From: an uncultured Campylobacterales bacterium
GTDB lineage: Bacteria; Campylobacterota; Campylobacteria; Campylobacterales; QNZT01
Length of the DNA: 64,000 nt
NCBI GenBank assembly: GCA_964622255.1
Contig: CAZUPK010000098.1
Coordinates: 24,569-88,568, forward strand
Reading direction: 5' to 3'
Shown here: one piece after another, positions 675 through 47,376 of the stretch
Position numbering within the stretch: the first letter of the stretch is position 1
How the letters are laid out: each line of letters opens with the position of its first letter
Position numbers and translations under genes: made by a program
Notes under the pieces: model-generated
What the model was told of the DNA's origin: nothing
The model's input: only the letters and a program-made list of their open reading frames with translations
The model's database searches: none

Positions 675-2003
675 TTAGTTTAGTGCTACTTGTATGATTT
701 GACCTGCAACTATACCAAAATATATAGTCCCGGCTAATAATATAGTTTGTCCTATTAAAGCTCCGGTAGAAATAGTAGCTGTTTTCTCCTCTGTTGGAGC
801 ATCAAAGTAGATAAATTTTACAAGCCAAGCATAGTAAGCAACTGCCAAAGCTGAGTTTAAAAGTCCTACTAAAACTAAAGGCCAAAGTCCGGCATCAACA
901 CCTGCATAAAATGCCACCGCTTTTGATAAAAATCCTGCCAAAAGTGGAATACCTGCAAGTGAGAAAAGTTGAGCTGTAAAGAAAAATGCATAAACTCCCG
1001 ATCTCTCTCTGAGTCCTTTCAAATCCTCTATATACTTGATACCAAGATCTTTTCTAAGTCCATTTAATATCATAAAAACTGCTGTTTGCATAAATATATA
1101 TGCTATAGCATAGTATAAAACTCCACTATATGCATATTTACTAGCAATAGCCGCAAAAGGTATCAAAGCATAACCACTATGAGCAATAGAAGAGTATGCC
1201 AAAACTTTTGAAACTCTCTTTTGCCATAGTGCCATAAAGTTTGCCAAAGTCATAGTTACTACTGCAAAAAAACTAAAGATAACAACCGATACTGATGGGA
1301 AAGATTTAAAAAATGGACTAAATGCATTGAAAACTGCAACTAAAATCACACTCTTTACCAAGCCACTAAGTATTGCTGCAACTGCATGGTTTATTTGTGA
1401 GTAAGCATCCGATGCCCAACCATGCATAGGAACAATGGTAAGCTTATAAAAGATACCGGCTAACATAATAGCAGCTGCAACTAAGGCATATTTGCTATTT
1501 GAATCCATAGTTGCATAATCAAATGTAGGAGTAACTACTGTAAAGATAGCAAATCCTAAAAGTATAACACCACCGGCAACTGCACCTGCTATGAAAGTTT
1601 TTATAGCACCCTCTGCATTGTAGTAGTTTCTTATATTTGCTGCTAAAACATATGAAACAATAGCCATTGCTTCAAATAAAACTATAAAAACAAACATATT
1701 ATTTGTTTCTAAGATACCTAAACTTAAACCTCCAATAAATAGCATCTGTGAGAGCATAGGTCTTTCAAATCCGGTTAGAGATACTGAAACTGCAAAAAGT
1801 GCAATGAGTGTAACATACTCCATCAATCTTATAGAATCATCTGAACTAAAGTAGTTGAAATACTCGGACAAACTGTGACCGCCCACAATCATAAAAATAG
1901 ATAAAACAAATGCTACTGCAGTTATTATCTTACCAACAATTATATTTTTTTTATAGGATATAGGAACAATCAATCCTGCAATTATTAATATAGCAAAACT
2001 CAT
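675..2003 (-). CDS. nuoN: complex I-like antiporter-type subunit N
   Basis: 442 aa polytopic membrane protein of the NuoL/M/N (Mrp antiporter-like) family. Last gene of the nuo-like operon; its start overlaps the nuoM stop. Confidence 0.85.
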   Translation of the reverse strand: MSFAILIIAGLIVPISYKKNIIVGKIITAVAFVLSIFMIVGGHSLSEYFNYFSSDDSIRLMEYVTLIALFAVSVSLTGFERPMLSQMLFIGGLSLGILETNNMFVFIVLFEAMAIVSYVLAANIRNYYNAEGAIKTFIAGAVAGGVILLGFAIFTVVTPTFDYATMDSNSKYALVAAAIMLAGIFYKLTIVPMHGWASDAYSQINHAVAAILSGLVKSVILVAVFNAFSPFFKSFPSVSVVIFSFFAVVTMTLANFMALWQKRVSKVLAYSSIAHSGYALIPFAAIASKYAYSGVLYYAIAYIFMQTAVFMILNGLRKDLGIKYIEDLKGLRERSGVYAFFFTAQLFSLAGIPLLAGFLSKAVAFYAGVDAGLWPLVLVGLLNSALAVAYYAWLVKFIYFDAPTEEKTATISTGALIGQTILLAGTIYFGIVAGQIIQVALN

Positions 2004-3430
2004 TACATACCTCCAAGAAAGCTAAAAGCTTGATTAGCCAAGTCAAATATAGGTTGAGGCTTAATACCAAACAACACTATCAGTATCGCAAAAACAGTCA
2101 AGCCAACCCTTTTAGGAGTACCCATAACAAACTCCGTTTTTTCAACGAGTGGAGATATTTCACCGTGTATAGAGCGACGAACTGCCCAGATGATATAACC
2201 AGCAGTTACAAGTCCAGAAAGTGCTATAAATGCTATCCACCAACCAAAAGATTTAACAGCAGATACTATGATAGTAAGCTCTCCAACAAATCCCATAGTT
2301 CCAGGAAGTCCAAGTCCTGCCATACCAGCTAGAATAAATATTGCACTAATATATGGAGCTTTTTTCATAATACCACCCATCTCATCAAGATACCAAGTAT
2401 GAGTTTTATGGTGGAACCAACCGGCTATTAAGAACAGAGGTGATATAACAAGTGCATGTCCTACCATCTCATATAAAGCTGCACTTAAACCATCATAAGT
2501 CATAGTGCTTATAGCAACTACAACAAGTCCCATATGAGAAATAGACGAGTAAGCAACCATCTTTTTGATATGTCTTTCATAGATAGCAAGCATACCTGCA
2601 AAAAGAGTTGTTATCAAGCCTAAGGCCAACATATATTGTGCAAACTCTTTTGTAGTTTCTGGCATAAGTTCAACGGTAAATCTTATCAAACCATATGCAC
2701 CCATCTTAAGTAAAACACCGGCTAATAAAACCGATATTGAGCTTGGTGCTTCAACATGGGCATCTGGAAGCCAAGTATGAAATGGAAATGATGGAAGTTT
2801 TGCTGCAAACCCTATAAACATTAACCACCAAATAAGAGACGGAGTTGCTATAACAGCCTCTTTTATCATAGTTATATCCCAAACTCCTGTTTGTTTATAT
2901 AGTAAAAAAAATCCGACCAACATAAACATACTAGCTACATGAGTATATAGAAAAAATTTTACAGCTGCATATATTCTTTTTTCACCTCCCCAAACACCAA
3001 CTAAAAATAACATAGGTAAAAGTGTAAGTTCCCAAAATACAAAGAACCAAAGAACATTCGTAGTCATAAAAACTCCGAAGATTGGTCCACTAAACATAAC
3101 CAACAAACTAAAAAATGCACTCTGACTCTTTTCTTCCCAAGATGTTAAAGAGACTAATATAAGAAGTCCAGCTGTAAGTATCAACATAACAACACTAAGT
3201 GCATCAACTTGCAATCTCAAATCAAACCCAAACTGCGGTACAGCCAAGTATGTTCCCAAGTCCAACATCCCAATTTGAGGGAGTTGTAATAGCAAAATAA
3301 AAGCATACAAAAGCTGAAATCCAAACCATCCCATCGCTATATATTTGGCAATGCTTTGATTGTTCTTTGTCAACAAATAGATCACCACAGAGAAAAATGT
3401 AGGTAAAAATATTATCATTAATGCCATCAT
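2003..3430 (-). CDS. nuoM: complex I-like antiporter-type subunit M
   Basis: 475 aa. Motifs WLPDAHVEAP and VAYSSISHMG are typical of NuoM/ND4. One-nt overlaps with both neighbours. Confidence 0.85.
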   Translation of the reverse strand: MMALMIIFLPTFFSVVIYLLTKNNQSIAKYIAMGWFGFQLLYAFILLLQLPQIGMLDLGTYLAVPQFGFDLRLQVDALSVVMLILTAGLLILVSLTSWEEKSQSAFFSLLVMFSGPIFGVFMTTNVLWFFVFWELTLLPMLFLVGVWGGEKRIYAAVKFFLYTHVASMFMLVGFFLLYKQTGVWDITMIKEAVIATPSLIWWLMFIGFAAKLPSFPFHTWLPDAHVEAPSSISVLLAGVLLKMGAYGLIRFTVELMPETTKEFAQYMLALGLITTLFAGMLAIYERHIKKMVAYSSISHMGLVVVAISTMTYDGLSAALYEMVGHALVISPLFLIAGWFHHKTHTWYLDEMGGIMKKAPYISAIFILAGMAGLGLPGTMGFVGELTIIVSAVKSFGWWIAFIALSGLVTAGYIIWAVRRSIHGEISPLVEKTEFVMGTPKRVGLTVFAILIVLFGIKPQPIFDLANQAFSFLGGM

Positions 3431-5286
3431 TATAGCCCCTTCATTAACACTAAGATCATTACAACCATAATTGCAACTCCAATCACATACTGCCCCATAT
3501 AACTTCCTATTTGTCCAGTATGTCCCACTTTAAATGATTTATATACACCTTTAGTAGCAGGAACAGTTGCATTTACTAACCAATCAATAATATTTGTATC
3601 TACCCATCTTGCTGACTTTGCGATAGACTCAACTACTATATTTTTAGAAATCCAAGTTATCATTTTCTCAACATAATATCCGTTAAATAAAACTTGATGT
3701 ATTATCTTCATAAATGGATGTTGAGACATCTTTTCTAAAAGTCCTAAAGCTTTAACATAAGTTACAACAACTATGCTAAAGATAACTGCCATAGCTGCTA
3801 AAACCATAACTGTTAAACCCTTGATATGAGGCTCTATTTCCTTTTTATCTCCTAAGATAAAGTGAACTATATCTGTTTGCCATAAAGATATAACCAAAGT
3901 TATAAATGCCAAAACACCAAGAGGAGCTCTCATCCAAAAATTTGAGGGTGCATGCATATTTCCGTCTAACTCTTGATTTCTTGTCTCACCAACAAAGATG
4001 AGTAACCATAATCTTGTGATATAGGCTATAGATAAAAGTGCTGCCATAGTAGCAAAAACCTTCACAAATGGTGAACCTTGAGCTATAACAGAAGCTACAA
4101 CCATCTCTTTTGAGAAAAATCCACTAAATGGAGGAACACCAGCTAAACTTAAAGAGCCTACAGCCATAAAAAGTGCAACAAATGGAGCAGTTTTTATAAG
4201 ACCACCAAGTTTCCAAGCATCTTTAACATGGTGAGCTATATATATAACAGCACCGGCACTTAAAAATAGTAAAGCTTTAAAAATAGCATGGTTTACAAGA
4301 TGAAGCATACCAGCTGCAAGTGAACCAACTCCAAGGCCAACAAATGCTATAGAAAGATGTGACATAGTTGAATAAGCCAAAATCTTTTTGATCTCTTTTT
4401 GAACCAAAGCACTACTTGCACCGATAAATGCACTAAGTGCTGCTACATTTGCAACAACTAAAAGTGCTCCTGAAAACTCAAAAAAGTCAAACATTCTCGC
4501 AACTATATATATACCACTGTTAACCATAGTAGCACCGTGGATTAGAGCAGAAACTGTTGTAGGACCTTCCATTGCATTCATAAGCCAAGGATATAGAGGA
4601 AACTGACCAGACTTTCCAATAGCTCCCATAAAGATAAACATAGCTATAACAAAACCAGCAGTTTTATCTATCTCACCCTTTGATGCCAACTCATTTAACT
4701 CGATAAGATTTACAGTTCCTGTAAAATAGATCAAGAGTGCAATAGCCGCCAAGATAAAGATGTCTCCAAATCTTGTATATAAAAAGGCTTGCATACCGGC
4801 ACTTGCAGCAGATGGTTTGTAATACCAAAAGCTAATAAGTGCATAACTTGCAAGTCCCATAATCTCCCAACCAACAAAAGCACCTATTAAATCTTTTGTG
4901 CTAACAAGAAGAATCATACCACCGATAAAAAAAAGAACTTTTGCATAGTATCTTCCCTGATCCGGTTCATCACCCATATAGTCATGGGCAAAATGAATAT
5001 CAACCCAACCAAGTCCGGTTGCTATCAAAAGCATAGTTATCGAGAGATGATCTATATATATTCCAAATGGGAGTTTTAGATCACCATAAGCTATCCAAGT
5101 ATATGAGATATCTATAGGCTTTCCATTATGAGTAAAAAAGATAATCAAACTTCCCAAAAAGAAAAGTCCGCCTATAATCTCTGCAATCCAAAAAGGTATT
5201 TTCGAATCTACTCTACCACTAAGATAAGCTATAACAGCACCTACAAATGGAAGAACTAAAAGTATCAACAATGCACTATCTACCAT
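3430..5286 (-). CDS. nuoL: complex I-like subunit L (start trimmed to MVDSALL)
   Basis: NuoL/ND5 family with a long C-terminal extension. The ORF-track start at 5325 lies deep inside nuoK. The ATG at 5286 gives an 11-nt overlap and a typical N-terminus. Confidence 0.85.
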   Translation of the reverse strand: MVDSALLILLVLPFVGAVIAYLSGRVDSKIPFWIAEIIGGLFFLGSLIIFFTHNGKPIDISYTWIAYGDLKLPFGIYIDHLSITMLLIATGLGWVDIHFAHDYMGDEPDQGRYYAKVLFFIGGMILLVSTKDLIGAFVGWEIMGLASYALISFWYYKPSAASAGMQAFLYTRFGDIFILAAIALLIYFTGTVNLIELNELASKGEIDKTAGFVIAMFIFMGAIGKSGQFPLYPWLMNAMEGPTTVSALIHGATMVNSGIYIVARMFDFFEFSGALLVVANVAALSAFIGASSALVQKEIKKILAYSTMSHLSIAFVGLGVGSLAAGMLHLVNHAIFKALLFLSAGAVIYIAHHVKDAWKLGGLIKTAPFVALFMAVGSLSLAGVPPFSGFFSKEMVVASVIAQGSPFVKVFATMAALLSIAYITRLWLLIFVGETRNQELDGNMHAPSNFWMRAPLGVLAFITLVISLWQTDIVHFILGDKKEIEPHIKGLTVMVLAAMAVIFSIVVVTYVKALGLLEKMSQHPFMKIIHQVLFNGYYVEKMITWISKNIVVESIAKSARWVDTNIIDWLVNATVPATKGVYKSFKVGHTGQIGSYMGQYVIGVAIMVVMILVLMKGL

Positions 5287-5587
5287 CGTCCACCGCCCTA
5301 TCAAGATTGTCAGGAATAACTTCACCAGTCATTCTTGATGCTAATAAGAAGATTAAAACACCAGTTGCTGCCTCAAGTGTTGCTATAACTATGATGATAT
5401 AAGCTAAAGCTAAACCGTGAGTCAAACCTAAGTTATAAGTTGCACTTGCTAAAAATAGTATCACAGCATTTAGTAACATCTCCAAAGAAAAGAAGATTTT
5501 TAAAAAATCACTCTTACTAGTTACTCCATATAAACCTATTCCAAAAAGCACAATAGCAAATATGGAATCCACATAAAAACCACTCAT
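5276..5587 (-). CDS. nuoK: complex I-like subunit K
   Basis: 103 aa, three TM helices, LEMLLNAV motif typical of NuoK/ND4L. Confidence 0.85.
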   Translation of the reverse strand: MSGFYVDSIFAIVLFGIGLYGVTSKSDFLKIFFSLEMLLNAVILFLASATYNLGLTHGLALAYIIIVIATLEAATGVLIFLLASRMTGEVIPDNLDRAVDDGR

Positions 5588-6060
5588 AGTTCCTCCTTCT
5601 TCTCTTTTTTTAGAGTGTGTAGCATCCTAACACTCCCATAGAGAATACTTGTTGCAACAACTCCTAAAAATACTGCTATTTCTGAAAAAGAGTCTGTAAA
5701 TACTTTTATCTGCTCATTTAAGGGTATTATTTTAGGATTGGTTGGTTTTATAGGAAATACAAATGGAATAATCAAAAGTCCCACAACTATAACTAAAACA
5801 GTTGCGACCGCCCAATTTCTTGTCTCTTTCTTTGGAAAATCTGCTCCTATAACAGATACACCAAACAGTGTAAGAACAACTATACCACCGGTATATACAA
5901 ATATTTGAAATAATCCCAAAAGTTTTTCATCCATCATTATGTAGTAGATCCCAAGTAAAAACATCAACAACACAAATGCAAGTATTGAAGGAACTGTTTT
6001 CTCTTGAACCAAACTCATAACAGCAAGGACAATAACCAATGCCAATATCAATATACTCAC
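5584..6060 (-). CDS. nuoJ: complex I-like subunit J
   Basis: 158 aa membrane protein. Position and FVYTGGIVVL motif are typical of NuoJ/ND6. Confidence 0.8.
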   Translation of the reverse strand: MSILILALVIVLAVMSLVQEKTVPSILAFVLLMFLLGIYYIMMDEKLLGLFQIFVYTGGIVVLTLFGVSVIGADFPKKETRNWAVATVLVIVVGLLIIPFVFPIKPTNPKIIPLNEQIKVFTDSFSEIAVFLGVVATSILYGSVRMLHTLKKEKKEEL

Positions 6061-6590
6061 TGTTCATCTCCTTCCTCTTTTGTTTTAGTTTTAGCCTTTG
6101 CTTTAGCCTTTTCTTCAGCTTTCTTTTTTGCTAACATCTCAGCTTTTTTTCTCTTTTTTTCTTCTTCTTCTTTTTGCTTATCTTCTATCCAACCATCAGG
6201 GATATTTGCTCTAACCCAATACTCCGATATACTCTTATCATCACCTTCAACGACCATATCAAACTCTCCACCACTTAAGTAGATAGCCTTTTGAGGTTTT
6301 GTAGGACAAACATCTTCACAAAGTCCACAAAAGATGCAGATTCCAAGATTTACCTCAGGAAGTGCTTTTGGTTTTTTTATAGGAAGAGGAGACATAACAA
6401 TAGCATCAACCGGACATATCTTTTCACAAGCACCACAACCGGTGCAAATATCATATCTTACAACATGTTTACCTCTAAACATCGAAGATTGATGCACTTT
6501 TTCTTTTGAAACATCAGTAGTAGCTATGCGAGGTTCAGTTATAGACTTTACAACTTCACTCATCTTTTCTAGTATATCAAACAATATCAT
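6057..6590 (-). CDS. nuoI: complex I-like subunit I (2x[4Fe-4S] ferredoxin-type) with a Lys/Glu/Ala-rich C-terminal tail
   Basis: Two CxxCxxCxxxCP motifs (CTGCGACEKICP, CIFCGLCEDVCP). The tail is KQKEEEEKKRKKAEMLAKKKAEEKAKAKAKTKTKEEGDEQ. Confidence 0.85.
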   Translation of the reverse strand: MILFDILEKMSEVVKSITEPRIATTDVSKEKVHQSSMFRGKHVVRYDICTGCGACEKICPVDAIVMSPLPIKKPKALPEVNLGICIFCGLCEDVCPTKPQKAIYLSGGEFDMVVEGDDKSISEYWVRANIPDGWIEDKQKEEEEKKRKKAEMLAKKKAEEKAKAKAKTKTKEEGDEQ

Positions 6591-6591
6591 A

Positions 6592-7590
6592 TTACATTCC
6601 TAAAAGATATATTTTGGCAAAAGATATCCAAACAAGATTTAGTATAGCAGCCGGTGTTAACCAACTCCAACTAAACTTAAGCATCTGATCCAACCTCAAA
6701 CGAGGTGTTGCTGCTCTTACTACAAGCACTATAAATAGTAAAACGGTAATCTTTATAAATAGCCACCAAAAACTATCCATAAAAATCCCCTGATAACCAC
6801 CAAAGAAGAGAACCGCCGCAGTTGCTGAGACTACTAAAAATTCCATATTTTCAGCAAGTTTTAAAAGGACATAATTTGTTCCCGAATACTCGGTATAAAA
6901 ACCATACACTATCTCTTGTTCAGCTTCTGGTATATTAAAGGGTGGTTGTTGCAAAATTCCCAACATAGAGATTACAAATAAAACTGCTCCGGGTAAAAGT
7001 ATCAAAGTAGAAGTAAAGCTACTTTGTGTTTGAATATTATAAAGATTCATAGTCCCAAAAAAAAGTGCAGGAGATAGAGCCGACAAGAAAAATGCCGCTT
7101 CCATAGATAGCATTTGAACTAAAACTCTCATACCACCTAAAAAGGAGTATTTATTATCAGAACCAAAACCAGTTAAAAATAGCAAAAATGGTTCAACTCC
7201 TATCAAAACAACTATACCCAAGAGTCCATATTGAGTATCTAAAATACCATGTCCATTGTTTATCAAAGGAGTCCATGGTATTAAGATAACAGGAAGCGAA
7301 GCAATAACAGGAGTTAATATCGGTATGATATTAAACAGATATGTATCTGCTGTTCTTGGAGTTATAGACTCTTTTCCAAGAAGTTTAAATATATCAAACA
7401 CTGTTTGATAAGCTCCCCCAGGTCCATTGTAGTGAGGACCAACTCTTCTATGAATATAGGCTAAAGCTTTCCTAAAAAAGTAAAAAGCAAAAAAGGTCCA
7501 TGCAAGAAGAAATAAAATTCCCGGAAAAACAAAAACATAAAATAGTATTTCACCAAAACCCATCATTCCCTCCTTATCTATCCAAGTCAC
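6592..7590 (-). CDS. nuoH: complex I-like subunit H
   Basis: 332 aa polytopic protein with RRVGPHYNGPGG, EAEQEIV.GF.TEYSG and PRLRLDQ motifs typical of NuoH/ND1. Confidence 0.9.
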   Translation of the reverse strand: MTWIDKEGMMGFGEILFYVFVFPGILFLLAWTFFAFYFFRKALAYIHRRVGPHYNGPGGAYQTVFDIFKLLGKESITPRTADTYLFNIIPILTPVIASLPVILIPWTPLINNGHGILDTQYGLLGIVVLIGVEPFLLFLTGFGSDNKYSFLGGMRVLVQMLSMEAAFFLSALSPALFFGTMNLYNIQTQSSFTSTLILLPGAVLFVISMLGILQQPPFNIPEAEQEIVYGFYTEYSGTNYVLLKLAENMEFLVVSATAAVLFFGGYQGIFMDSFWWLFIKITVLLFIVLVVRAATPRLRLDQMLKFSWSWLTPAAILNLVWISFAKIYLLGM

Positions 7591-9223
7591 CTTGACAAAT
7601 ATTCATACTTCCGTAAAGTAGTGATATATCTGACAAAGTTTTTCCACGAAGCATTGGATCAAGAACAAGTGTGTGATTTAAACTCGGTGCCTTTATCTTT
7701 AACCTATATGGACTTGTAGCTTTATCCTGAGTAACTAAGTGCATAAGCATTTCACCTCTTGCCCACTCAACTCTACTTACAGCCTCACCTGCTGGCATCT
7801 TTCTTGGCATTTTGACCATATGATCTTTTTTAGGATCCATCTTACCAACTTCGACACCCTCTTCTATTTTTTTCATAGCTTGTTCCATCAAATCTGCAGA
7901 TTGTTTTAATTCTTTAAATAGCATAAGAAGTCTATCTCTTGCATCCCCATTTTTTTCAAGCTCAAAATCCATCTTAAGATCACCATAACCTGCATAAGGC
8001 TCGTTTAATCTTACATCAACCTTCTCTCCAATTGCTCTAGCTATTGGTCCGCATAGATAGTATTTTTCCATATCATCTGAAGTAAATATACCTGCACCTA
8101 CTGCTCTTGTAGCCATAAGGGGATTTTCTACAAAAATACTCTCCAACTCCTCTTTATGTTTTTCAAACTTTTTTATAGCTTTTCTAACAGATGCAAAAAA
8201 AGCTTTATAATCCTCAAGTGGATATCTAACCCCACCCGGTTCTATACAAGCAGTTGCTATTCTAGCTCCACTATAGTTATCAAGAACATCAAGATAGCTC
8301 TCTCTTATATCAAGAAGCCACATCATAAAGGTCATAAGTCCCATATTTCCAAAAAAACTTCCCATAGAAACAAGATGCGATGCACTTCTTCCAACCTCTC
8401 CTAAAATAACCCTCATATATTTTGCAAAAGGCGTTATTTCTTTTCCTGCTATCTCTTCAACAGCTTGAGCATAGCAAATCATAGGGTTTGTATTGTCCAT
8501 AAAACAAACCCTTTCAACTGCAACGATGGCACCTATGAAATCTTTTCTTGTTACAAGATCTTCCAAAGCTCTCCAAACATACCCTATATCAAGTTCAACC
8601 TTTTTTATTATCTCACCATCTGCTGTAACTTTAAGTCTTATAGGTCCGCTTGCAGGATGGGTAGGTCCCCAGTTTAAAATAGTTTGACTACTACTTTTAT
8701 CTGCACTTTTTTCTACTTCTTCATACTCATCATAATACTCTTGAGTTATTTCACCAATATTTTCTATAAGTTTTTTCTCGTGTTCTAAATAGTCAAAATC
8801 TTTTCTAAAAGGATAGAGTCCATAATAATCTGTACTTATCAAAAAATATCTAAGATCCGGATGACCTTTAAATTTTACTCCAAAAGTTGAGTAACTTTCT
8901 AACTCGTGCCAATCGGCACTTGGCATAAGTGGAGTTATAGAGTCTATCTCACACTTATCAAGTTCCCTTGGAATATCTACTTTTAGCCAAACATGGCGAT
9001 GTTTTTTCATATCTTCTAAAAAGTAGTTTATCTCCATCTTATTATCTTCCAAAAAGTCGGTAGGAGATACGGTAGAGCAACTTTTTACCCCCTCTTTTAC
9101 CAAATCCTCTATAACTTTAAGCAAGTCGCCTGGATTTTTTAGCTTTGCTTTTACATATATTTTTTTGTATTCTTTTATGTATTGTGTTTCAAACTTTGAA
9201 AGTATATTTTTTATATTTTCCAT
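7574..9223 (-). CDS. nuoCD: fused NuoC-NuoD module (divergent NuoD part)
   Basis: 549 aa. The N-terminal third is NuoC-like (SADWHELESYSTFGV.F.GHPDLR). The C-terminal part is NuoD-like (LNWGPTHP..IRL, DIGY, C-terminal GSMNICQGDLDR). Overlaps the nuoH start by 17 nt. Confidence 0.8.
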   Translation of the reverse strand: MENIKNILSKFETQYIKEYKKIYVKAKLKNPGDLLKVIEDLVKEGVKSCSTVSPTDFLEDNKMEINYFLEDMKKHRHVWLKVDIPRELDKCEIDSITPLMPSADWHELESYSTFGVKFKGHPDLRYFLISTDYYGLYPFRKDFDYLEHEKKLIENIGEITQEYYDEYEEVEKSADKSSSQTILNWGPTHPASGPIRLKVTADGEIIKKVELDIGYVWRALEDLVTRKDFIGAIVAVERVCFMDNTNPMICYAQAVEEIAGKEITPFAKYMRVILGEVGRSASHLVSMGSFFGNMGLMTFMMWLLDIRESYLDVLDNYSGARIATACIEPGGVRYPLEDYKAFFASVRKAIKKFEKHKEELESIFVENPLMATRAVGAGIFTSDDMEKYYLCGPIARAIGEKVDVRLNEPYAGYGDLKMDFELEKNGDARDRLLMLFKELKQSADLMEQAMKKIEEGVEVGKMDPKKDHMVKMPRKMPAGEAVSRVEWARGEMLMHLVTQDKATSPYRLKIKAPSLNHTLVLDPMLRGKTLSDISLLYGSMNICQGDLDR

Positions 9224-9236
9224 ACCCTTACCGCCT

Positions 9237-9710
9237 TTAAAACTTCATTTCTTTCCAAAGACCACCTTGACTTGAAGCACTTGGCTCACCTCTTTTGATC
9301 TTTTCTTTTAAGTCTTCCAAACCAGCGATAATTGCTTCAGGTCTTGGAGGACAACCGGCAACAAAAACATCAGCTGGTAATATCTCGGTCATATTTTTTA
9401 TAACTGAAACAGAGTCATTGTAAGGACCACCATCATATGCACACGCTCCAAGAGCCACAACATATCTAGGCTCTGGCATCTGAGCATAGGTTCTTAAAAG
9501 TGCAGGTAGTATCTTTTTACTCACAAGTCCGGTTATGAACATAATATCAGCCTGTCTAGGAGTGGGTGCCATCAAATACCCATATCTTTCCCAGTCAAAT
9601 CTAGGTCCCATTGATGCCAACATCTCAAGAGAACAACAACCACTACAAAAGTGGACAATCCACGGAGATTTACTCCTCGCATAGTTAAAAAAATCAAGCA
9701 CTTTTAGCAT
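9237..9710 (-). CDS. nuoB: complex I-like subunit B (N2 cluster carrier)
   Basis: Tandem CC (GCCSLEM), SPRQAD-like PRQADIM, GACAYDGG and GCPPRPE motifs are all present. Confidence 0.9.
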   Translation of the reverse strand: MLKVLDFFNYARSKSPWIVHFCSGCCSLEMLASMGPRFDWERYGYLMAPTPRQADIMFITGLVSKKILPALLRTYAQMPEPRYVVALGACAYDGGPYNDSVSVIKNMTEILPADVFVAGCPPRPEAIIAGLEDLKEKIKRGEPSASSQGGLWKEMKF

Positions 9711-10032
9711 TTCTGTATTCCTTCATAGATATTGTAATTGCAGCAAATAGTAAACTTCCAAATACTATAGCCCAACCTATTGCAGTTTTTGACTGCGAAA
9801 AAACAAACAGACTGAAAAAAAGCCCAGCCATATCAAAAACTATAAATGCAATAGCAAATATAAAATAGTTAAAGTTAGCTTTTTTAGGCACTTCACTACT
9901 TGGCGGTAATCCACACTCAAAGTGGTCCACTTTTATACCATCAGGATTATAAGGTGCAACCCCTATTCCTAATAGATACAAGAGTAAAACACCAACTGTT
10001 ATACCGACAATAAAAATCAAAACAGTATCCAT
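9694..10032 (-). CDS. nuoA: complex I-like subunit A (start trimmed to MDTVLIF)
   Basis: NuoA/ND3-like (FECGLPP motif). The ATG at 10032 is preceded by AGGAGAG at good spacing. The ORF-track start at 10071 adds 13 unlikely residues. Confidence 0.8.
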   Translation of the reverse strand: MDTVLIFIVGITVGVLLLYLLGIGVAPYNPDGIKVDHFECGLPPSSEVPKKANFNYFIFAIAFIVFDMAGLFFSLFVFSQSKTAIGWAIVFGSLLFAAITISMKEYRNAKSA

Positions 10033-10191
10033 CGACTTACCTCTCCTTTTTTTATTAACCCCTAAAAACAAAAATTATTTGATTTCAATACTAACCAATC
10101 TTTCCTATGAAAAACCTGAAATAATTATAATTTATTCTAATATTGGATAAGCTCTAAATGGATTAGTTTTTTTCGACAACTTCCTACTTTA

Positions 10192-11227: not shown

Positions 11228-12418
11228 TTATGTTAGTGATGCTGTTTGGTGAAGATCTATTATCTTTAGATAAAACTTCTTATCATCCATTTCTTCTAAG
11301 AGTCCGTTTGATGGGAAAAAATCTGGGAATTTATTTATCAACTTTTTCCATCTTTTTTTATATAGAGAGCTTAAAAATATAGCCGATATCTCTTTCCTAA
11401 CCAAAACTGCCGGAGGTAAAAGTCCTTGAAGCATAAGCTCTTCTATAAATTCACTTTTGTATGATATATGGTGGTGGGTTCCATGTGGACAAGTCTTTGT
11501 GCTAACTAAAGTTTTACATTCATTACAATAAACATACTCACTGCTTACCTCTATGCTAAACTCATCACTATCAAACCTATCAACTATGGAGTTAGTTCCA
11601 TACTTATCATAAAAGAGTCCTATTCCGGAGTGGTTTTGCCCTACACTTATGGCATCACAACCAAAGTTTTTTGCAGCTAGTGCATCTAAAAAAACATTGT
11701 TATACCCTGCAAATATATAGGTATTTTCAAAGGGAACTATTAAGACTTTATTTTTTGGCAAAAAGTTATCTGTGTAATATTTTAGTGCTTCATATCTAAG
11801 CTCATATGAAAATTTATCTTTTTTATATGGTTTAAGTAAAAATAGCACTATCATATCACTCTTTTCAAGGGCATCTCTTATCATTCTTTCATGTCCCCTA
11901 TGAAGAGGTTTTGCCGCCATCATAATAGCCGTTACTTTTTTAGCATTTACCAACTCTTTTTGTTTTTTTATAAGCCTTTTTATCTCTTTGACAAAAGTTG
12001 TATCAACCTCATACTCTCCACTTACAGCAAACTTTCCAAGTCTTCTTAAAGTGTCTTTTACTCCGGGATGAGATGCATCAGTTGTAGCAAATATCTGTTC
12101 TACTCTTTTTAACCTATCTATCTTAAAAACTTCATCAACCTTTAGCTCACCACACTTTTTACCATCCTCTACTAAATCAACAATATCCCCACTTTTTAAA
12201 GATTCTAAAACTTTTGCATTTCTTTTTCCACTTGGAGCTAGAATAAAAGGGAAAGGGAAAAAGTGTCCTTTGTAGGATGAAGTTTGTTCAACACTTTTTG
12301 ACTCATTTTGATTCATCAACTTATCAACAGGTGACAAAATCCCCTCTTTAACTAAAGCAAGAGTTGCCAAAGCTTCTTTATCTATATACAGAGCTTTATC
12401 TCTTTTTTGTGATCCCAT
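11228..12418 (-). CDS. ATP-sulfurylase-fold protein with a non-canonical substrate motif
   Basis: HRGH (HxxH) nucleotidyltransferase motif, GQNHSGIG in place of GRDHAG, and a C-terminal CxxC..CPH..ISY..L..G..PP region, colinear with sulfate adenylyltransferase. The track start at 12460 is a TTG; the first ATG at 12418 is used here. Confidence 0.55.
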   Translation of the reverse strand: MGSQKRDKALYIDKEALATLALVKEGILSPVDKLMNQNESKSVEQTSSYKGHFFPFPFILAPSGKRNAKVLESLKSGDIVDLVEDGKKCGELKVDEVFKIDRLKRVEQIFATTDASHPGVKDTLRRLGKFAVSGEYEVDTTFVKEIKRLIKKQKELVNAKKVTAIMMAAKPLHRGHERMIRDALEKSDMIVLFLLKPYKKDKFSYELRYEALKYYTDNFLPKNKVLIVPFENTYIFAGYNNVFLDALAAKNFGCDAISVGQNHSGIGLFYDKYGTNSIVDRFDSDEFSIEVSSEYVYCNECKTLVSTKTCPHGTHHHISYKSEFIEELMLQGLLPPAVLVRKEISAIFLSSLYKKRWKKLINKFPDFFPSNGLLEEMDDKKFYLKIIDLHQTASLT

Positions 12419-13289
12419 ACTTTTTTCGTTTCTCCCAAAGACTCTTTCTTGATATGCCAAGCTTCTTTGAGAGTTCAGTATCTGGAAACTTACCTTGATA
12501 TTTTAGTATCACATACTTTACATAATTTTCTATAGATAGAAGTTCCCCCTCTCTATCAAATAGACTCTCTTCATTTTTTATCTCTAAAGATTCTAACCCC
12601 TCTAAGCTCTCATACATATCTGTAGTTGAAAGTATAACTCTTCTTTTTTGAATAAGAGGTAAAACCTTAGATTTTTCACTCCTTTGCAAGTTTTGAAAGT
12701 CTGTCAGATACACAAGTTCATTTGGATTTATCTTTTCAAGTTGTCTTAGAGCATCTTTATCTTCTAAAGATATAAAGGTAAAAGACTCATTAAATTCCTC
12801 TACATACTTAAAAACCATACTATCTGCTACCTTTTGACTACTTACCTTTAAAAGTATAGGAAACTCGGTATTTTCATCAAGCTTCTTTACTATACTTTTT
12901 TTAAGAAGATGGTTAATATAATTTTTATATGTTTGATTCTCTTTTCTATATTGTATGTAGTCTTGAAGATGCTCCAACTTTCTAATCAACTCCTCTATCA
13001 TAAAAGGTTTTAGTATATAGTCATTTGCTCCAGCTTTTAAAGGTGCTGTTACAGTATCGTTACTTACATATGAGACCATAAGTATTATGATACTATTTTT
13101 GTAGTGTTCTATAATAGGATAAAAATTTTGCCCGGAGATATTCGTAGAAAGTAATACGGCATCAAAATCTCCACCCCTTAGGGCATCCTTTACACTCACT
13201 GCCAATTCACAACTATGTCCTAAATTGTTTAGCTTCGTAGAAATACTTTGTGCTAAATAAATCTCATTTTCAACTATCAATATCTTCAT
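12396..13289 (-). CDS. atypical orphan response regulator (HP1021/Cj1608 CemR-like): receiver domain lacking the phospho-acceptor Asp, plus a C-terminal HTH
   Basis: Receiver fold MKILIVENE..AVLLSTNISG..ILKPF has Ser where the acceptor Asp is expected. C-terminal LSKKLGISRKSLWEKRKKYGI is a Fis-type HTH. It sits directly beside ispDF, as HP1021 does with HP1020 and Cj1608 with Cj1607 (recalled). Confidence 0.7.
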   Translation of the reverse strand: MKILIVENEIYLAQSISTKLNNLGHSCELAVSVKDALRGGDFDAVLLSTNISGQNFYPIIEHYKNSIIILMVSYVSNDTVTAPLKAGANDYILKPFMIEELIRKLEHLQDYIQYRKENQTYKNYINHLLKKSIVKKLDENTEFPILLKVSSQKVADSMVFKYVEEFNESFTFISLEDKDALRQLEKINPNELVYLTDFQNLQRSEKSKVLPLIQKRRVILSTTDMYESLEGLESLEIKNEESLFDREGELLSIENYVKYVILKYQGKFPDTELSKKLGISRKSLWEKRKKYGITKKR

Positions 13290-39150: not shown

Positions 39151-39176
39151 TCTTTAAAATGTTTTTTAGTATAATT

Positions 39177-39205
39177 CTCCTATGCCTTTTTTTGGGGCAT
39201 AGGGG
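39177..39205 (+). other. 10-bp hairpin between acnB and mltG overlapping the mltG ribosome-binding site
   Basis: CTCCTATGCC (39177-39186) pairs with GGCATAGGGG (39196-39205) around a T7-containing loop. The TATAAT at 39170-39175 lies just upstream. Confidence 0.3.
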
Positions 39206-40159
39206 ATGTATATGAGAAAAATCTTAAAATATTTTTTTAATTTTGTATTTTTAGTTTTAATCTCTTTGTTGTTCTTTTATTTTTACTTACACGACTATCT
39301 TAAAACTACTATTCGAAATCCAAAGATAGTTTATATTCCAAAAGGTTCTACCAAAAGTGTATATGAGTATTTTGTAAAAAAAGGTTATGGCTTAAATCTT
39401 ATTGATTACTATATTATAAAATATAAAGGCTATCCACAAGCCGGTTGGATAGATGTAAAAGAGGAAAATCTCTCAAGATGGGATTTTTTTTACAAAATTA
39501 CACACTCTCGTGCTATGGAAATAAATATAACTATAGTTCCTGGTGAGACAACAGAGATAGTTTTAGAGCAATTAGCCAAAAAATATAGTTTAAGTGTTAC
39601 AAAACTACACACTTTTTATAAAGAATTTGCACCATATCCAGAAGGAGTAATCATTCCAGAAACTTACACTTACTATAAAGGGATAGATGAGAAAAAGTTA
39701 ATAAAACTTTTACTTTCTTCATCTTTAAAAAGGCATAAACTGCTATCAAAAAAATTGTTAGATTATTATAAAGAGGATGAATGGTTTAAAAAATACATAA
39801 CTATAGCTTCTATCATACAAAAAGAGTCTGCAAATAAAAAGGAGATGTCAAAAATATCAGCAGTTATCTACAATCGCCTAAAAAAAGGGATGAAATTACA
39901 AATGGACGGCACTTTAAACTATGGAAAAAACTCTCATAAAAAGGTTACTCCAAAGCAAATAAGAGATGATAACAGCAGTTTTAACACATATAAAATAAAG
40001 GGTTTACCTCCATATCCTGTGTGTATTGTAGAAAAAAGTGCTGTTATAGCAGCGGTAAAACCGGATAAAAATGACTACCTATATTTTGTAAAAAAAGATA
40101 AAAATTCACACTATTTTTCTAAAACATATAAAGAGCATAAGAAAAATATAAAAAGATAA
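39206..40159 (+). CDS. mltG: endolytic murein transglycosylase (YceG family)
   Basis: N-terminal TM helix. ITIASIIQKES..AVIYNRL..GM.LQ.DGTLNYG is the YceG signature region. The start may be the ATG at 39212. Confidence 0.75.
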   Translation: MYMRKILKYFFNFVFLVLISLLFFYFYLHDYLKTTIRNPKIVYIPKGSTKSVYEYFVKKGYGLNLIDYYIIKYKGYPQAGWIDVKEENLSRWDFFYKITHSRAMEINITIVPGETTEIVLEQLAKKYSLSVTKLHTFYKEFAPYPEGVIIPETYTYYKGIDEKKLIKLLLSSSLKRHKLLSKKLLDYYKEDEWFKKYITIASIIQKESANKKEMSKISAVIYNRLKKGMKLQMDGTLNYGKNSHKKVTPKQIRDDNSSFNTYKIKGLPPYPVCIVEKSAVIAAVKPDKNDYLYFVKKDKNSHYFSKTYKEHKKNIKR

Positions 40160-40276
40160 GTGTGTAAAAATGAAACACTTTTTTTATGCTTTTTTTTAAT
40201 GCCTTTGCTTTCATAAAACTTAAAATACTAACTTGATAAGATAATGTAATGAAAATATACATCGTAAGGAGATTTA

Positions 40277-42451: not shown

Positions 42452-42455
42452 CCTT

Positions 42456-42473
42456 AGAGGGATTTTTCCCTCT
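42456..42473 (+). terminator. hairpin after icd (AGAGGGA-TTTT-TCCCTCT)
   Basis: Perfect 7-bp stem 5 nt after the icd stop. The downstream T run is weak. Confidence 0.35.
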
Positions 42474-42510
42474 TAAATCTACGAAAATTTTTTAAATCTA
42501 AAGGAGAACA

Positions 42511-43488: not shown

Positions 43489-43500
43489 AAAGGGGATGAT

Positions 43501-44352: not shown

Positions 44353-44361
44353 GAGAAAGTC

Positions 44362-47024: not shown

Positions 47025-47043
47025 ATCTAGTAAAGGAGATATA

Positions 47044-47367: not shown

Positions 47368-47376
47368 GGAGAGAAT

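What the first reader, a model, noticed from the sequence alone, without database searches (positions are those of the whole stretch)
7574..9223. NuoD module of the fused NuoCD lacks both canonical quinone-headgroup ligands and has Cys at two ancestral NiFe-ligand positions
- **Missing His:** By-eye alignment to the NuoD/Nqo4 motifs I recall (GPQHPSTHGVLRL and RMDYL in T. thermophilus; GPHHPSAHGAFR and RIEYL in E. coli) places GPTHPASGPIRL (residues 187-198) and ERVCFMD (237-243) at those sites. The His that hydrogen-bonds quinone (Nqo4 His38) is absent.
- **Tyr to Phe:** The Tyr (Nqo4 Tyr87) is Phe241.
- **Retained Cys:** Cys240 sits where group 4 hydrogenases have the first Cys of RxCGxC. 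The C-terminal NICQGDLDR has Cys543 where hydrogenases have the first Cys of DPCxxC, a position that is Val in the two canonical NuoD sequences I recall. In NiFe hydrogenases those two first cysteines are both nickel ligands.
- **Other motifs:** IGYVWRALE replaces IGY(L/H)HRG.EK.
- **Context:** The NuoB N2-cluster cysteines are intact.
- **Inference:** The catalytic pocket differs from both textbook complex I and true hydrogenases. It recalls the Ehr-type 'missing link' complexes but sits in a full complex I-like membrane-arm context.
Basis: partly seen in the sequence, partly recalled or inferred. Interest (0 to 1): 0.7.

Follow-up and report, generated by a model that had tools for sequence, protein, structure and literature searches.

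The report
Known ancestral complex I with MBS-like pocket
The fused NuoCD gene of this hydrothermal-vent Nautiliales bacterium really does lack the usual quinone-binding residues and keeps two old hydrogenase cysteines, but this signature was published for the group in 2016; what the enzyme reduces is still untested.

Summary
The gene lies on the minus strand (7574-9223). HMMER and MAFFT alignments to T. thermophilus Nqo4, mouse NDUFS2, E. coli NuoCD, HycE and MbhL all agree:
- the Nqo4 His38 position is deleted;
- Tyr87 is Phe241 and Asp139 is Asn293;
- Cys240 and Cys543 sit at NiFe ligand positions 1 and 3.

All of these except Asn293 (Thr in most) are invariant in 120 Nautiliales cluster representatives, and the same pattern recurs at 45% identity in Aquificota.

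It is not new. Degli Esposti (2016, PMC4758237) described exactly this for the "ancestral" NUO10/11 operons of Nautiliales and Desulfurobacteriales.

What I add:
- The pocket matches P. furiosus MbsL position for position (C85/C385, same one-residue deletion).
- NuoB carries C-x-x-C-C, combining the MbsJ CxxC with the complex I tandem Cys.
- NuoH and the rest of the membrane arm are clearly complex-I type, with pumping residues intact.
- There is no NuoEFG.

My best reading is a ferredoxin-linked proton pump with a non-canonical acceptor:

| Acceptor | Estimate |
|---|---|
| Sulfane sulfur (MBS-like) | ~0.4 |
| Menaquinone | ~0.35 |

Neither has been tested.

The parts
7574..9223 (-). nuoCD: fused NuoC (about res 1-150) and NuoD (about res 178-549) subunit, 549 aa
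   Evidence: ORF and translation. Pfam PF00329 + PF00346. AlphaFold2 pLDDT 94.7. Foldseek TM 0.80-0.88 to NuoCD and HycE.
8633..8668 (-). beta1-beta2 loop GPTHPASGPIRL (res 186-197). It is one residue shorter than in complex I, lacks the Nqo4 His38 equivalent, and has Gly193 at the MbhL Glu21 position.
   Evidence: Invariant in 120 orthologue representatives.
8495..8515 (-). ERVCFMD (res 237-243). Cys240 is NiFe ligand 1 (Nqo4 Asp86, MbsL Cys85). Phe241 is at Nqo4 Tyr87. Asp243 is at the NiFe ligand 2 position.
7577..7603 (-). C-terminal NICQGDLDR (res 541-549). Cys543 is NiFe ligand 3 (Nqo4 Val403, MbsL Cys385). Asp546 is at the ligand 4 position. Asn541 is at Nqo4 Asp401.
9237..9710 (-). nuoB (157 aa), carrier of the proximal [4Fe-4S] cluster.
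   Evidence: Pfam PF01058. Gapless alignment to PSST and to MbsJ.
9633..9647 (-). NuoB C22-S-G-C25-C26. This is the MbsJ-type CxxC merged with the complex I tandem Cys.
9694..10032 (-). nuoA (112 aa from the ATG; the ORF extends to a TTG at 10071). The TMH1-2 loop carries HFECGLPP. TM2 has FDMA: the Asp is kept and the Glu is lost.
6592..7563 (-). nuoH (323 aa from the ATG; the ORF extends to a GTG at 7590). Complex-I-type membrane anchor and substrate tunnel.
   Evidence: Pfam. 148 bits to Nqo8 against 63 to MbsM. E-channel residues conserved.
6057..6590 (-). nuoI, a 2x[4Fe-4S] subunit and the likely ferredoxin entry point. It has a Lys/Glu/Ala-rich C-terminal tail.
5584..6060 (-). nuoJ
   Evidence: Pfam PF00499. 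Tyr59 equivalent conserved.
5276..5587 (-). nuoK
   Evidence: Pfam PF00420. E36 and E72 conserved.
3430..5325 (-). nuoL (antiporter-like, with C-terminal extension)
   Evidence: Pfam PF00662 + PF00361. E/D/K/K/K conserved.
2003..3430 (-). nuoM (antiporter-like)
   Evidence: E/K/K/E conserved.
675..2003 (-). nuoN (antiporter-like)
   Evidence: K/K/K conserved, and the TM5 Glu is E111.

Best explanation
**What it is.** This is the NuoCD subunit of the "ancestral" ten-gene complex-I-like enzyme (NUO10: nuoA-B-CD-H-I-J-K-L-M-N, no NuoEFG) typical of Nautiliales.

**Shown**
- It has a complex-I-type membrane arm with all key pumping residues.
- It has three [4Fe-4S] sites: two in NuoI and one in NuoB.
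- Its NuoD pocket has none of the residues that bind and protonate quinone in complex I (His38, Tyr87, Asp139 and Asp401 equivalents).
- That pocket reproduces position for position the pocket of the P. furiosus membrane-bound sulfane-sulfur reductase subunit MbsL: Cys at NiFe positions 1 and 3, the same one-residue loop deletion, no Tyr.
- NuoB carries the MbsJ CxxC plus the complex I tandem Cys.

**Inferred**
- Reduced ferredoxin docks at NuoI.
- Electrons pass through the three clusters to the NuoB cluster at the top of the NuoB/NuoD/NuoH chamber.
- There they reduce a hydrophobic acceptor that is not bound the way quinone is bound in complex I.
- The reaction drives proton pumping, or is driven backwards by the proton motive force.

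**My commitment on the acceptor.** Sulfane sulfur or polysulfide, as in MBS, is slightly more likely than menaquinone. Chemistry would take place at the proximal cluster and/or the surrounding cysteine triad (NuoB C22, NuoD C240, NuoD C543).

**Sub-confidences**

| Claim | Confidence |
|---|---|
| Identity and pocket signature | 0.95 |
| Ferredoxin-type donor | 0.7 |
| Ion pumping | 0.8 |
| Sulfane-sulfur acceptor | ~0.4 |
For: **Signature and conservation**
-.

**Match to MBS**
- HMMER ranges are gapless: query 183-286 to MbsL 28-131. They are also end-anchored at the C-terminus. This gives C240 = MbsL C85 and C543 = MbsL C385.
- The MBS paper states that MbsL keeps C85/C385 and lacks H38, Y87 and MbhL E21.
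- MbsJ is the best PDB match for the first 66 residues of NuoB: FCTGCGGIEM against FCSGCCSLEM, 59 bits compared with 51 for PSST.

**A coherent class**
- C-x-x-C-C in NuoB co-occurs with the C/F...C NuoD pocket in every lineage inspected: Nautilia, two Campylobacterota MAGs, Aquificota, and the loci of P0127 and P0139.
- By contrast, an Mrp-type MBS-like operon has CTGCG, Fpo has GCC and E. coli has SCC.

**Phylogeny**
- In an NJ tree the NuoD module falls in a clade with MBS-like large subunits and free of canonical NuoD in 34 of 60 bootstraps.
- It is nearer to E. coli NuoCD in 4 of 60.

**Not a canonical NuoD by curated thresholds**
- The protein scores below every NCBIfam NuoD equivalog cut-off.

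**Donor side**
- There is no nuoEFG in the operon here or in Nautilia.
- N. profundicola lacks nuoE/F/G.

**Pumping residues**
- Intact.

**Physiology**
- The hosts are H2-oxidising, S0-reducing vent anaerobes.
- The respiratory sulfur reductase is unidentified in T. ammonificans and C. mediatlanticus.
- In D. thermolithotrophum no psr/sre, sqr or mbs homologue is recognised, although a nuoA-N operon is present.
- In an Aquificota MAG a ferredoxin-dependent Ech hydrogenase operon lies directly upstream of the nuo operon.
- The window itself carries a ferredoxin-dependent reverse-TCA gene cluster.
Against: - **No biochemistry.** None exists for this class.
- **The MBS mechanism may not apply.** MBS catalysis depends on a proximal cluster with only three Cys ligands (MbsJ G29). 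Here the tandem C26 can supply the fourth ligand, as in complex I.
- **The cysteines may not be catalytic.** Mutating MbsL C85/C385 and MbsJ C25 did not affect polysulfide reduction.
- **Complex-I features point towards a quinone-type carrier.**
  - NuoH is far closer to quinone-reactive complex I than to MbsM.
  - NuoA, with its ECG loop, is present; MBS has no NuoA counterpart.
  - All characterised enzymes with this membrane arm and tandem-Cys cluster reduce membrane quinone-like carriers.
- **Energetics.** Ferredoxin to polysulfide yields about 41 kJ per 2e-. That is small for a four-channel pump, although F420H2-driven Fpo has the same mismatch (from my own knowledge).
- **Nautilia already has PsrABC**.
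- **Low abundance.** Only NuoC and NuoI were detected in the D. thermolithotrophum proteome under sulfur-reducing growth.
- **No sequence preference.** Class-HMM scores place the D module equidistant from hydrogenases and canonical NuoD (306 and 305 bits), with MBS-like at 257.
Confidence: 0.4

Rival explanations
1. It is a ferredoxin:menaquinone oxidoreductase with a non-canonical quinone site. It would run forward as an energy-conserving pump. Or it would run in reverse, driven by proton motive force, to make reduced ferredoxin for the reverse TCA cycle. Menaquinone enters the NuoH tunnel as in complex I. The headgroup packs on Phe241 and is protonated by the Cys240/Cys543 thiols, or by water, instead of Tyr87/His38.
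For: - NuoH is clearly complex-I type: 148 bits to Nqo8 against 63 to MbsM.
- NuoA/J/K/L/M/N are complete and their key residues are conserved.
- NuoB has the tandem cysteines typical of cluster N2 in quinone- and phenazine-reactive enzymes.
- Fpo reduces methanophenazine without His38 or Asp139 while keeping Cys1 and Cys3.
- Ferredoxin to menaquinone is about 70 kJ per 2e-, which matches four pumping channels (inference, using the figures).
- The literature on these organisms assumes menaquinone coupling.
Against: - All four residues proposed as signatures of quinone or phenazine reactivity are missing (Y87, H38, D139, D401). This includes Tyr87, which even Fpo retains.
- The protein fails the NCBIfam NuoD equivalog thresholds.
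- The extra upstream Cys in NuoB and the pocket pattern are MBS-like.
Confidence: 0.35
2. It is a conventional NADH (or NADPH):menaquinone oxidoreductase that recruits a separately encoded NuoEFG module. This is what is assumed for Desulfurobacterium thermolithotrophum.
For: The 2025 proteomics paper treats nuoABCDHIJKLMN plus a distant nuoGFE operon as one 14-subunit NADH dehydrogenase.
Against: - There is no nuoEFG in this operon or in the Nautilia operon.
- The N. profundicola genome is reported to lack nuoE/F/G altogether.
- The quinone pocket residues are missing.
- NuoEFG-like genes commonly belong to hydrogenases or formate dehydrogenases (established knowledge).
Confidence: 0.07
3. Cys240 and Cys543 are structural leftovers of the NiFe site with no catalytic role. 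Whatever the acceptor is, they only hold the N- and C-terminal segments of NuoD together near the cluster.
For: - The equivalent MbsL C85/C385 mutants keep full polysulfide reductase activity.
- The same two Cys persist in enzymes with different acceptors: Fpo, MBS-like and several unassigned clades.
Against: - They are strictly invariant over very deep divergence: 120/120 within the order, and retained at 33-45% identity. That argues for selection, though structural selection would be enough.
- They co-vary with the upstream NuoB Cys.
Confidence: 0.4
4. It is a genuine energy-converting [NiFe] hydrogenase.
For: - The fold is as close to HycE (TM 0.87) as to NuoCD.
- The hydrogenase class HMM scores as high as the NuoD class HMM.
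Against: - Only 2 of the 4 Ni/Fe cysteines are present; positions 2 and 4 are Asp.
- The MbhL Glu21 equivalent is Gly.
- The small subunit lacks the longer CxxC loop of hydrogenases.
- The membrane arm is of complex-I type.
Confidence: 0.01

Closest known systems
"Ancestral" NUO10/NUO11 complexes of Nautiliales and Desulfurobacteriales (Degli Esposti 2016, Genome Biol Evol 8:126, PMC4758237)
   Same: - Same taxon-level group, same NuoC-NuoD fusion, same operon without NuoEFG.
- Same stated signature: the first and third NiFe cysteines retained at Thermus positions 86 and 403, with His38/Asp139 absent.
- The window protein is 72% identical to the N. profundicola protein.
   Different: - Nothing essential differs. 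This is another member, from an uncultured vent organism.
- The paper's text implies that the NuoB cysteine doublet first appears in Fpo. Here the doublet is present together with an upstream Cys.
- The paper assigned these complexes an Mbx-like ferredoxin:NADP+ function, which has since been superseded by the MBS work.
[quoted passage not shown]
   Same: - The pocket pattern is identical at the hallmark positions: Cys at MbsL 85 and 385, the same one-residue shorter beta1-beta2 loop, and no His38, Tyr87 or Glu21 equivalents.
- The NuoB N-terminus is the closest to MbsJ, with the same F-C-x-G-C motif and the same loop length.
   Different: - NuoB has Cys26 where MbsJ has Gly29, so a four-Cys cluster is possible.
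- The membrane arm is complex-I type (NuoA/H/J/K/L/M/N), not Mrp type. NuoH scores only 63 bits to MbsM.
- Overall NuoD similarity to MbsL (144 bits) is below that to complex I subunits (164-193 bits).
Canonical complex I NuoD/NuoCD (T. thermophilus Nqo4, E. coli NuoCD, Aquifex NuoCD2, mitochondrial NDUFS2)
   Same: - Fold, C-D fusion as in E. coli and Aquifex, operon order, NuoB tandem cysteines, NuoH, and antiporter-like subunits with conserved residues.
   Different: - His38, Tyr87, Asp139 and Asp401 equivalents are all absent.
- Cys replaces Asp86 and Val403.
- It scores below the NCBIfam equivalog cut-offs.
- There is no NuoEFG.
Fpo, F420H2:methanophenazine oxidoreductase (FpoD/FpoB of Methanosarcina)
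   Same: - An 11-subunit complex-I-type operon.
- FpoD keeps Cys at NiFe positions 1 and 3 and lacks His38.
- FpoB has tandem Cys.
   Different: - FpoD keeps Tyr87 and has no loop deletion (Pro at the His position).
- FpoB lacks the upstream Cys (PMGCC).
Group 4 [NiFe] hydrogenase large subunits (HycE, MbhL, EchE) and Ehr complexes
   Same: - Common fold.
- R-x-C at the first motif and Cys at the first position of the second motif.
- Like Ehr/Mbx, the full NiFe ligand set is lost.
   Different: - Only 2 of 4 cysteines are present and the proton-delivery Glu is missing.
- The small-subunit loop is shorter.
- The membrane arm includes NuoA/J/K and three antiporter-like subunits, rather than an Mrp-type or minimal Ech-type arm.

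Membership tests
Canonical quinone-reducing NuoD (complex I 49-kDa subunit) | His in the beta1-beta2 loop that hydrogen-bonds the quinone headgroup (Nqo4 His38) | tested here: not met
   The His falls opposite a one-residue gap in HMMER alignments and in MAFFT. No insertion occurs there in 120 orthologues.
Canonical quinone-reducing NuoD (complex I 49-kDa subunit) | Tyr that hydrogen-bonds the quinone headgroup (Nqo4 Tyr87) | tested here: not met
   Phe241, 120/120.
Canonical quinone-reducing NuoD (complex I 49-kDa subunit) | Asp partner of His38 (Nqo4 Asp139) | tested here: not met
   Asn293 aligns with Asp139. It is Thr in 94 of 120 orthologues.
Canonical quinone-reducing NuoD (complex I 49-kDa subunit) | Score above the curated NCBIfam equivalog cut-off | tested here: not met
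   NF004739 scores 299.5 against a cut-off of 360. TIGR01962 scores 237.5 against 459. NF008728 (NuoC/D) scores 224.7 against 840.
Canonical quinone-reducing NuoD (complex I 49-kDa subunit) | NuoD fold and operon context with NuoA/B/H/I/J/K/L/M/N | tested here: met
   Foldseek TM 0.80-0.88. Operon. NuoH scores 148 bits to Nqo8.
Canonical quinone-reducing NuoD (complex I 49-kDa subunit) | NADH-input module NuoEFG | tested here: not met
   Absent from the operon here and in Nautilia. Reported absent from the N. profundicola genome. The rest of this genome could not be examined.
Group 4 [NiFe] hydrogenase large subunit | Four Ni/Fe-ligating cysteines (RxCGxC ... DPCxxC) | tested here: not met
   The pattern is C240 / D243 / C543 / D546.
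Group 4 [NiFe] hydrogenase large subunit | Proton-delivery Glu (MbhL Glu21) and a small subunit with the long CxxC loop | tested here: not met
   Gly193 aligns with MbhL E21. The NuoB loop is three residues shorter than in HycG or Ech.
MBS / Mbx (membrane-bound sulfane-sulfur reductase) | Large subunit keeps only NiFe cysteines 1 and 3 (MbsL C85, C385) and lacks the His38/Tyr87/Glu21 equivalents | tested here: met
   Gapless, end-anchored HMMER ranges, combined with the paper's statement.
MBS / Mbx (membrane-bound sulfane-sulfur reductase) | Proximal [4Fe-4S] with only three Cys ligands (MbsJ C-x-x-C-G, short loop) | tested here: inconclusive
   The loop length and CxxC are the same, but Cys26 replaces Gly29. 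Whether C26 ligates the cluster cannot be told from sequence.
MBS / Mbx (membrane-bound sulfane-sulfur reductase) | Mrp-type membrane arm (MbsA-H') | tested here: not met
   The arm is complex-I type. For contrast, a true MBS-like operon is seen at L089.
MBS / Mbx (membrane-bound sulfane-sulfur reductase) | Ferredoxin-dependent polysulfide or dimethyl-trisulfide reduction | not testable with these tools
   Needs enzyme assays.
Ancestral NUO10/NUO11 (Degli Esposti 2016) | Nuo operon without NuoEFG, with NuoC-D fused in Nautiliales | tested here: met
   and the definition.
Ancestral NUO10/NUO11 (Degli Esposti 2016) | NuoD keeps Cys at Thermus positions 86 and 403 and lacks His38/Asp139 | tested here: met
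   paper text.
[quoted passage not shown] | Related to group 4 hydrogenases, but the Ni/Fe-coordinating residues are lost | tested here: inconclusive
   Two of the four are lost. Under the broad usage that includes Mbx it would qualify, but the membrane arm is complex-I type.

The most novel reading that the evidence does not exclude
This complex could be a true mechanistic intermediate between MBS and complex I. It would be a complex-I chassis (NuoA/H/J/K/L/M/N, four pumping channels) whose catalytic site is a sulfur-reducing one. That site would comprise a tandem-Cys proximal cluster surrounded by three conserved non-ligand cysteines (NuoB C22, NuoD C240, NuoD C543) and two Asp at the other former NiFe positions. 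It would be the unrecognised membrane-bound respiratory sulfur/polysulfide reductase of Desulfurobacteriaceae and some Nautiliales. In those organisms no psr/sre/mbs-type enzyme accounts for S0 respiration. I found no paper in the searched library that proposes this.
Probability: 0.3. Interest if true: 0.8.

Novelty: already known. Interest (0 to 1): 0.4.

Why it matters
**For the evolution of respiration.** Complex I is thought to have evolved from proton-reducing hydrogenases through sulfur-reducing intermediates. This class combines the modern complex-I pumping arm with an MBS-like pocket, so it is the natural test case for when and how quinone chemistry was acquired.

**For annotation.** These operons are still annotated, and modelled, as ordinary menaquinone-dependent NADH dehydrogenases (for example). 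That reading is hard to reconcile with the missing quinone ligands and the missing NADH module.

**For vent physiology.** Knowing the real acceptor would change energy budgets for abundant vent autotrophs. It might also identify the missing sulfur reductase of Desulfurobacteriaceae.

**For this scan.** The main point is that the finding is real but already described at the sequence level.

Tried and rejected
1. **The + strand at the given coordinates.** It is full of stop codons; the gene is on the minus strand.
2. **First submission of the representative search.** It used the wrong frame and was repeated correctly.
3. **The single genome-contig scan.** I ran it with an alignment of the class. 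The degenerate patterns were too generic, so it was swamped by canonical NuoD and returned only one relevant locus (L003). Organism-level distribution therefore rests on protein names and on nine look-ups of encoding contigs.
4. **Measuring the Cys240-Cys543 distance and inspecting the cavity.** Only fold-level comparison was possible.
5. **Class-specific HMMs.** Models for hydrogenase, canonical NuoD, MBS-like and Fpo-like classes did not discriminate. The D module scores 306, 305, 257 and 229 bits, and the class sizes are unequal.
6. **NJ tree.** Deep nodes have weak support: the 14-member non-Tyr clade was recovered exactly in only 3 of 60 bootstraps. I use only the relative statement of 34/60 against 4/60.
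7. **Apparent loss of NuoN Glu133.** A pairwise alignment suggested this, but it was an alignment artefact that a multiple alignment corrected.
8. **True hydrogenase reading.** Considered and rejected.
9. **Separately encoded NuoEFG reading.** Considered and judged unlikely.

Full report
**1. What is at the coordinates**

The + strand of 7574-9223 is closed by many stops. The minus strand holds a 549-aa ORF with Pfam Complex1_30kDa (res 32-146) and Complex1_49kDa (res 294-549). It is therefore a fused NuoCD.

It lies in a co-oriented operon nuoA-B-CD-H-I-J-K-L-M-N spanning 675-10071 on the minus strand, with no nuoE/F/G.

The window has 33% G+C. The identical protein occurs on contigs from hydrothermal-vent metagenomes. 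Its closest named relatives are Nautilia, Lebetimonas and Caminibacter at 67-72% identity. The organism is therefore an uncultured member of the Nautiliales.

**2. Check of the observation**

Independent alignments agree. The sources are HMMER against mouse NDUFS2 and against T. thermophilus Nqo4 and MbhL, HycE against Nqo4 and MbhL, and a 153-sequence MAFFT alignment that includes E. coli NuoCD and HycE.

| Motif | This protein | Aligned with | Consequence |
|---|---|---|---|
| beta1-beta2 loop | GPTHPAS-GPIRL | GPQHPSTHGVLRL (Tt), GPNHPSAHGAFR (E. coli) | The His38 position is a one-residue deletion; the only loop His is H189 (= Nqo4 His34) |
| First NiFe motif | ERVCFMD | RMDYLH (Tt), RIEYLG (E. 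coli), RVCGIC (HycE) | C240 = NiFe Cys 1 / Nqo4 Asp86; F241 = Tyr87 |
| Second NiFe motif | NICQGDLDR | DPVMGDVDR (Tt), DPCYSCTDR (HycE) | C543 = NiFe Cys 3 / Nqo4 Val403 |

Further points:
- Asp139 of Nqo4 aligns with N293, and Asp401 with N541.
- MbhL Glu21 aligns with G193.

Conservation is strong. In 120 cluster representatives at 66-100% identity, C240, F241, D243, C543, Q544, D546 and H189 are invariant, and no sequence has an insertion at the His38 site.

An AlphaFold2 model is confident (pLDDT 94.7, pTM 0.94). It matches Aquifex and E. coli NuoCD and HycE with TM 0.80-0.88.

**3. How unusual it is among relatives**

A search of 1.84 billion cluster representatives falls steeply:
- one same-family representative at 61% identity;
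- one at 45% (P0122);
- everything else at 38% or below.

P0122 represents a cluster of Aquificota MAG proteins.

Tabulating the six key positions over the 150 best representatives shows three things:
- The exact pattern (gap, C, F, D, C, D) is shared only by the same-family representative (P0121), the Aquificota clade and one further lineage, P0139.
- The P0139 contig also carries a PaREP1-family gene. From my own recollection this family is associated with Thermoproteales, which hints at a crenarchaeal origin.
- Retention of Cys 1 and Cys 3 without Cys 2 and Cys 4 is widespread. It occurs in Methanosarcina FpoD (with Tyr), in Mrp-type MBS-like operons (P0130), in a Heimdallarchaeota protein and in others.

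**4. It is already in the literature**

Degli Esposti (Genome Biol Evol 2016, PMC4758237) describes the "most ancestral" nuo operons in Nautiliales and Desulfurobacteriales. These are called NUO10 when NuoC and NuoD are fused. [quoted passage not shown] It also says that His38 and Asp139 appear only later.

Other relevant papers:
- Campbell et al. (2009) noted the partial NUO without NuoEFG in N. profundicola.
- A 2019 preprint calls this simple complex I the probable ancestral form in Campylobacteria.

The sequence-level finding is therefore known. No biochemical study turned up in the searches.

**5. What I can add: the pocket is the MBS pocket**

The MBS structure paper (PMC7684303) reports the following:
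- MbsL keeps two of the four NiFe cysteines (C85, C385).
- MbsL lacks the His38, Tyr87 and Glu21 equivalents.
- The proximal cluster in MbsJ is held by three cysteines only (C28, C93, C123), with C25 nearby.

HMMER ranges tie this protein to MbsL position for position:
- Query 183-286 aligns with MbsL 28-131 without gaps, so C240 = C85 and both share the one-residue deletion.
- The C-terminal end-anchored alignment gives C543 = C385.

For NuoB, the first 66 residues match MbsJ best among all PDB chains (59 bits against 51 for PSST). The motifs are FC22SGC25C26SLEM here and FC25TGC28G29GIEM in MbsJ. The whole protein aligns without gaps to mitochondrial PSST, where FGLACCAVEM supplies the tandem cysteines. 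NuoB therefore unites the MbsJ CxxC with the complex I CC.

The C-x-x-C-C motif co-occurs with the NuoD pocket across lineages:

| Source | NuoB motif type |
|---|---|
| Nautilia, two other Campylobacterota MAGs, the Aquificota Nuo11, and the loci of P0127 and P0139 | C-x-x-C-C |
| Mrp-type MBS-like operon | CTGCG |
| FpoB | PMGCC |
| E. coli NuoB | GLSCC |
| Ech, HycG | Longer C-N-G-C loop |

A coherent class therefore exists. It has NuoD C/F...C, NuoB CxxCC and a complex-I-type membrane arm.

**6. The rest of the complex is of complex-I type and looks functional**

- NuoH scores 148 bits to Nqo8 and 147 to E. coli NuoH, but only 68 to MbhM and 63 to MbsM.
- Key charged residues are conserved in NuoH (E-channel), NuoK (E36, E72), NuoL, NuoM and NuoN.
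- NuoA keeps the ECG loop and Asp80 but has Ala at the E. coli Glu81 position. The Glu is also missing in the Aquificota and P0139-locus NuoA (Val and Phe).
- NCBIfam puts NuoCD below every NuoD equivalog cut-off. NuoB passes subfamily models only. This agrees with NCBI's own name for some orthologues, "NuoD-related protein".

**7. Phylogenetic position**

- An NJ tree of 150 representatives joins the query with the Aquificota clade in 60 of 60 bootstraps.
- The query falls in a clade that contains MBS-like large subunits and no canonical NuoD in 34 of 60.
- It is closer to E. coli NuoCD than to the MBS-like P0130 in 4 of 60.
- Class HMMs are uninformative.

This weak result agrees with the published tree, in which Nautiliales and mbx-like complexes branch early.

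**8. Mechanism**

*Shown:* three cluster-binding sites, no NADH module, intact pumping residues, and a pocket without quinone ligands.

*Inferred:* reduced ferredoxin is the partner at NuoI. This follows from the analogy with other 11-subunit complexes and from the ferredoxin-dependent metabolism of the host. The window itself encodes AcnB, monomeric IDH, MDH, fumarase, SucCD and OorDABC. In an Aquificota MAG an Ech hydrogenase operon sits directly upstream of nuoA-N.

*The acceptor is the open question.*

Arguments for sulfane sulfur:
- the MBS-type pocket and NuoB motif;
- restriction to S0-reducing vent anaerobes;
- an unresolved sulfur-reduction pathway in T. ammonificans and C. mediatlanticus;
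- D. thermolithotrophum, where no psr/sre, sqr or mbs homologue is recognised although nuoA-N is present.

Arguments for menaquinone:
- NuoH, NuoA and the tandem-Cys cluster are those of quinone- or phenazine-reactive enzymes;
- energetics fit four channels better, using the per-complex figures;
- Nautilia already has PsrABC;
- in MBS the homologous cysteines are dispensable and catalysis needs an open iron site, which C26 may close here;
- only NuoC and NuoI were detected in the Desulfurobacterium proteome.

My estimates are about 0.4 for sulfane sulfur, 0.35 for menaquinone, and the remainder for other acceptors.

**9. Verdict**

The feature has been documented for this very group since 2016, so novelty at the sequence level is nil.

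Residual interest is moderate. The function is untested, and current papers still treat these operons as ordinary NADH dehydrogenases. I did not find the link to MBS-type chemistry, or the CxxCC motif, described in the searched literature.

Noticed in passing
window 9633-9647 (-), NuoB residues 22-26: NuoB has C-S-G-C-C, combining the MbsJ/hydrogenase-type CxxC with the complex I tandem Cys. The motif co-occurs with the unusual NuoD pocket in every lineage inspected (about 33-45% NuoD identity at the extremes). The text of the 2016 paper implies the doublet first appears in Fpo.
   Followed up: yes
window 8495-8497 and 7586-7588 (-), NuoD Asp243 and Asp546: The positions of NiFe cysteines 2 and 4 are both invariant Asp (120/120). 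They are Asp or Glu in most MBS-like and related clades. The former NiFe site is therefore 2 Cys + 2 carboxylates, a possible residual metal site. No metal was reported there in MBS.
   Followed up: partly
window about 6057-6185 (-), C-terminus of NuoI: NuoI ends in a roughly 40-residue Lys/Glu/Ala-rich low-complexity tail (KQKEEEEKKRKKAEMLAKKKAEEKAKAKAKTKTKEEGDEQ). The tail is longer in Nautilia and another Campylobacterota MAG and absent in Aquificota and E. coli. It might be an electrostatic docking arm for an acidic ferredoxin.
   Followed up: partly
window 9694-10032 (-), NuoA: NuoA keeps the ND3-type loop motif (HFECGLPP) and Asp80 but has Ala where E. coli has Glu81 (FDVE becomes FDMA). 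The Glu is also missing in the Aquificota and P0139-locus NuoA.
   Followed up: partly
window 36562-49923 (+): A contiguous reverse-TCA gene cluster: aconitase B, monomeric isocitrate dehydrogenase, malate dehydrogenase, class I fumarase alpha/beta, succinyl-CoA synthetase beta/alpha, and four-subunit 2-oxoglutarate:ferredoxin oxidoreductase (OorDABC). The host therefore needs a supply of reduced ferredoxin.
   Followed up: partly
window 11228-12460 (-): An ATP sulfurylase gene (PUA_2 + ATP-sulfurylase) lies about 1.2 kb upstream of the nuo operon. It is separated from the operon by pgpA and a small ORF with no Pfam match.
   Followed up: no
L084 3270-18061 and L085 (Aquificota MAG): A six-gene Ech-type [NiFe] hydrogenase operon lies directly upstream of, and co-oriented with, the nuoABCDHIJKLMN operon that carries the same unusual NuoD.
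   Followed up: partly
L086 5514-16824 (locus of P0127): A related operon (NuoD pattern H, C, F, E, C, D; NuoB CIACC) has the gene order J-K-B-C-D-H-I followed by four antiporter-like subunits instead of three. nuoA is divergently transcribed.
   Followed up: no
window 7563-7590 and 10032-10071 (-): The mechanical ORFs for nuoH (GTG at 7590) and nuoA (TTG at 10071) are longer than the public gene calls for the identical sequence (323 aa and 112 aa, from ATG codons). With the shorter nuoH start there is no overlap with the nuoCD stop.
   Followed up: yes
L090 5363-8926: In a related Campylobacterota MAG, the ribonucleotide reductase large-subunit gene next to the nuo operon carries an intein with a LAGLIDADG endonuclease domain.
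   Followed up: no
window 57829-59514 (-): An ORF combining a predicted AAA-ATPase_like domain with a PD-(D/E)XK nuclease (PDDEXK_9) domain. It may be a mobile or defence-related gene.
   Followed up: no
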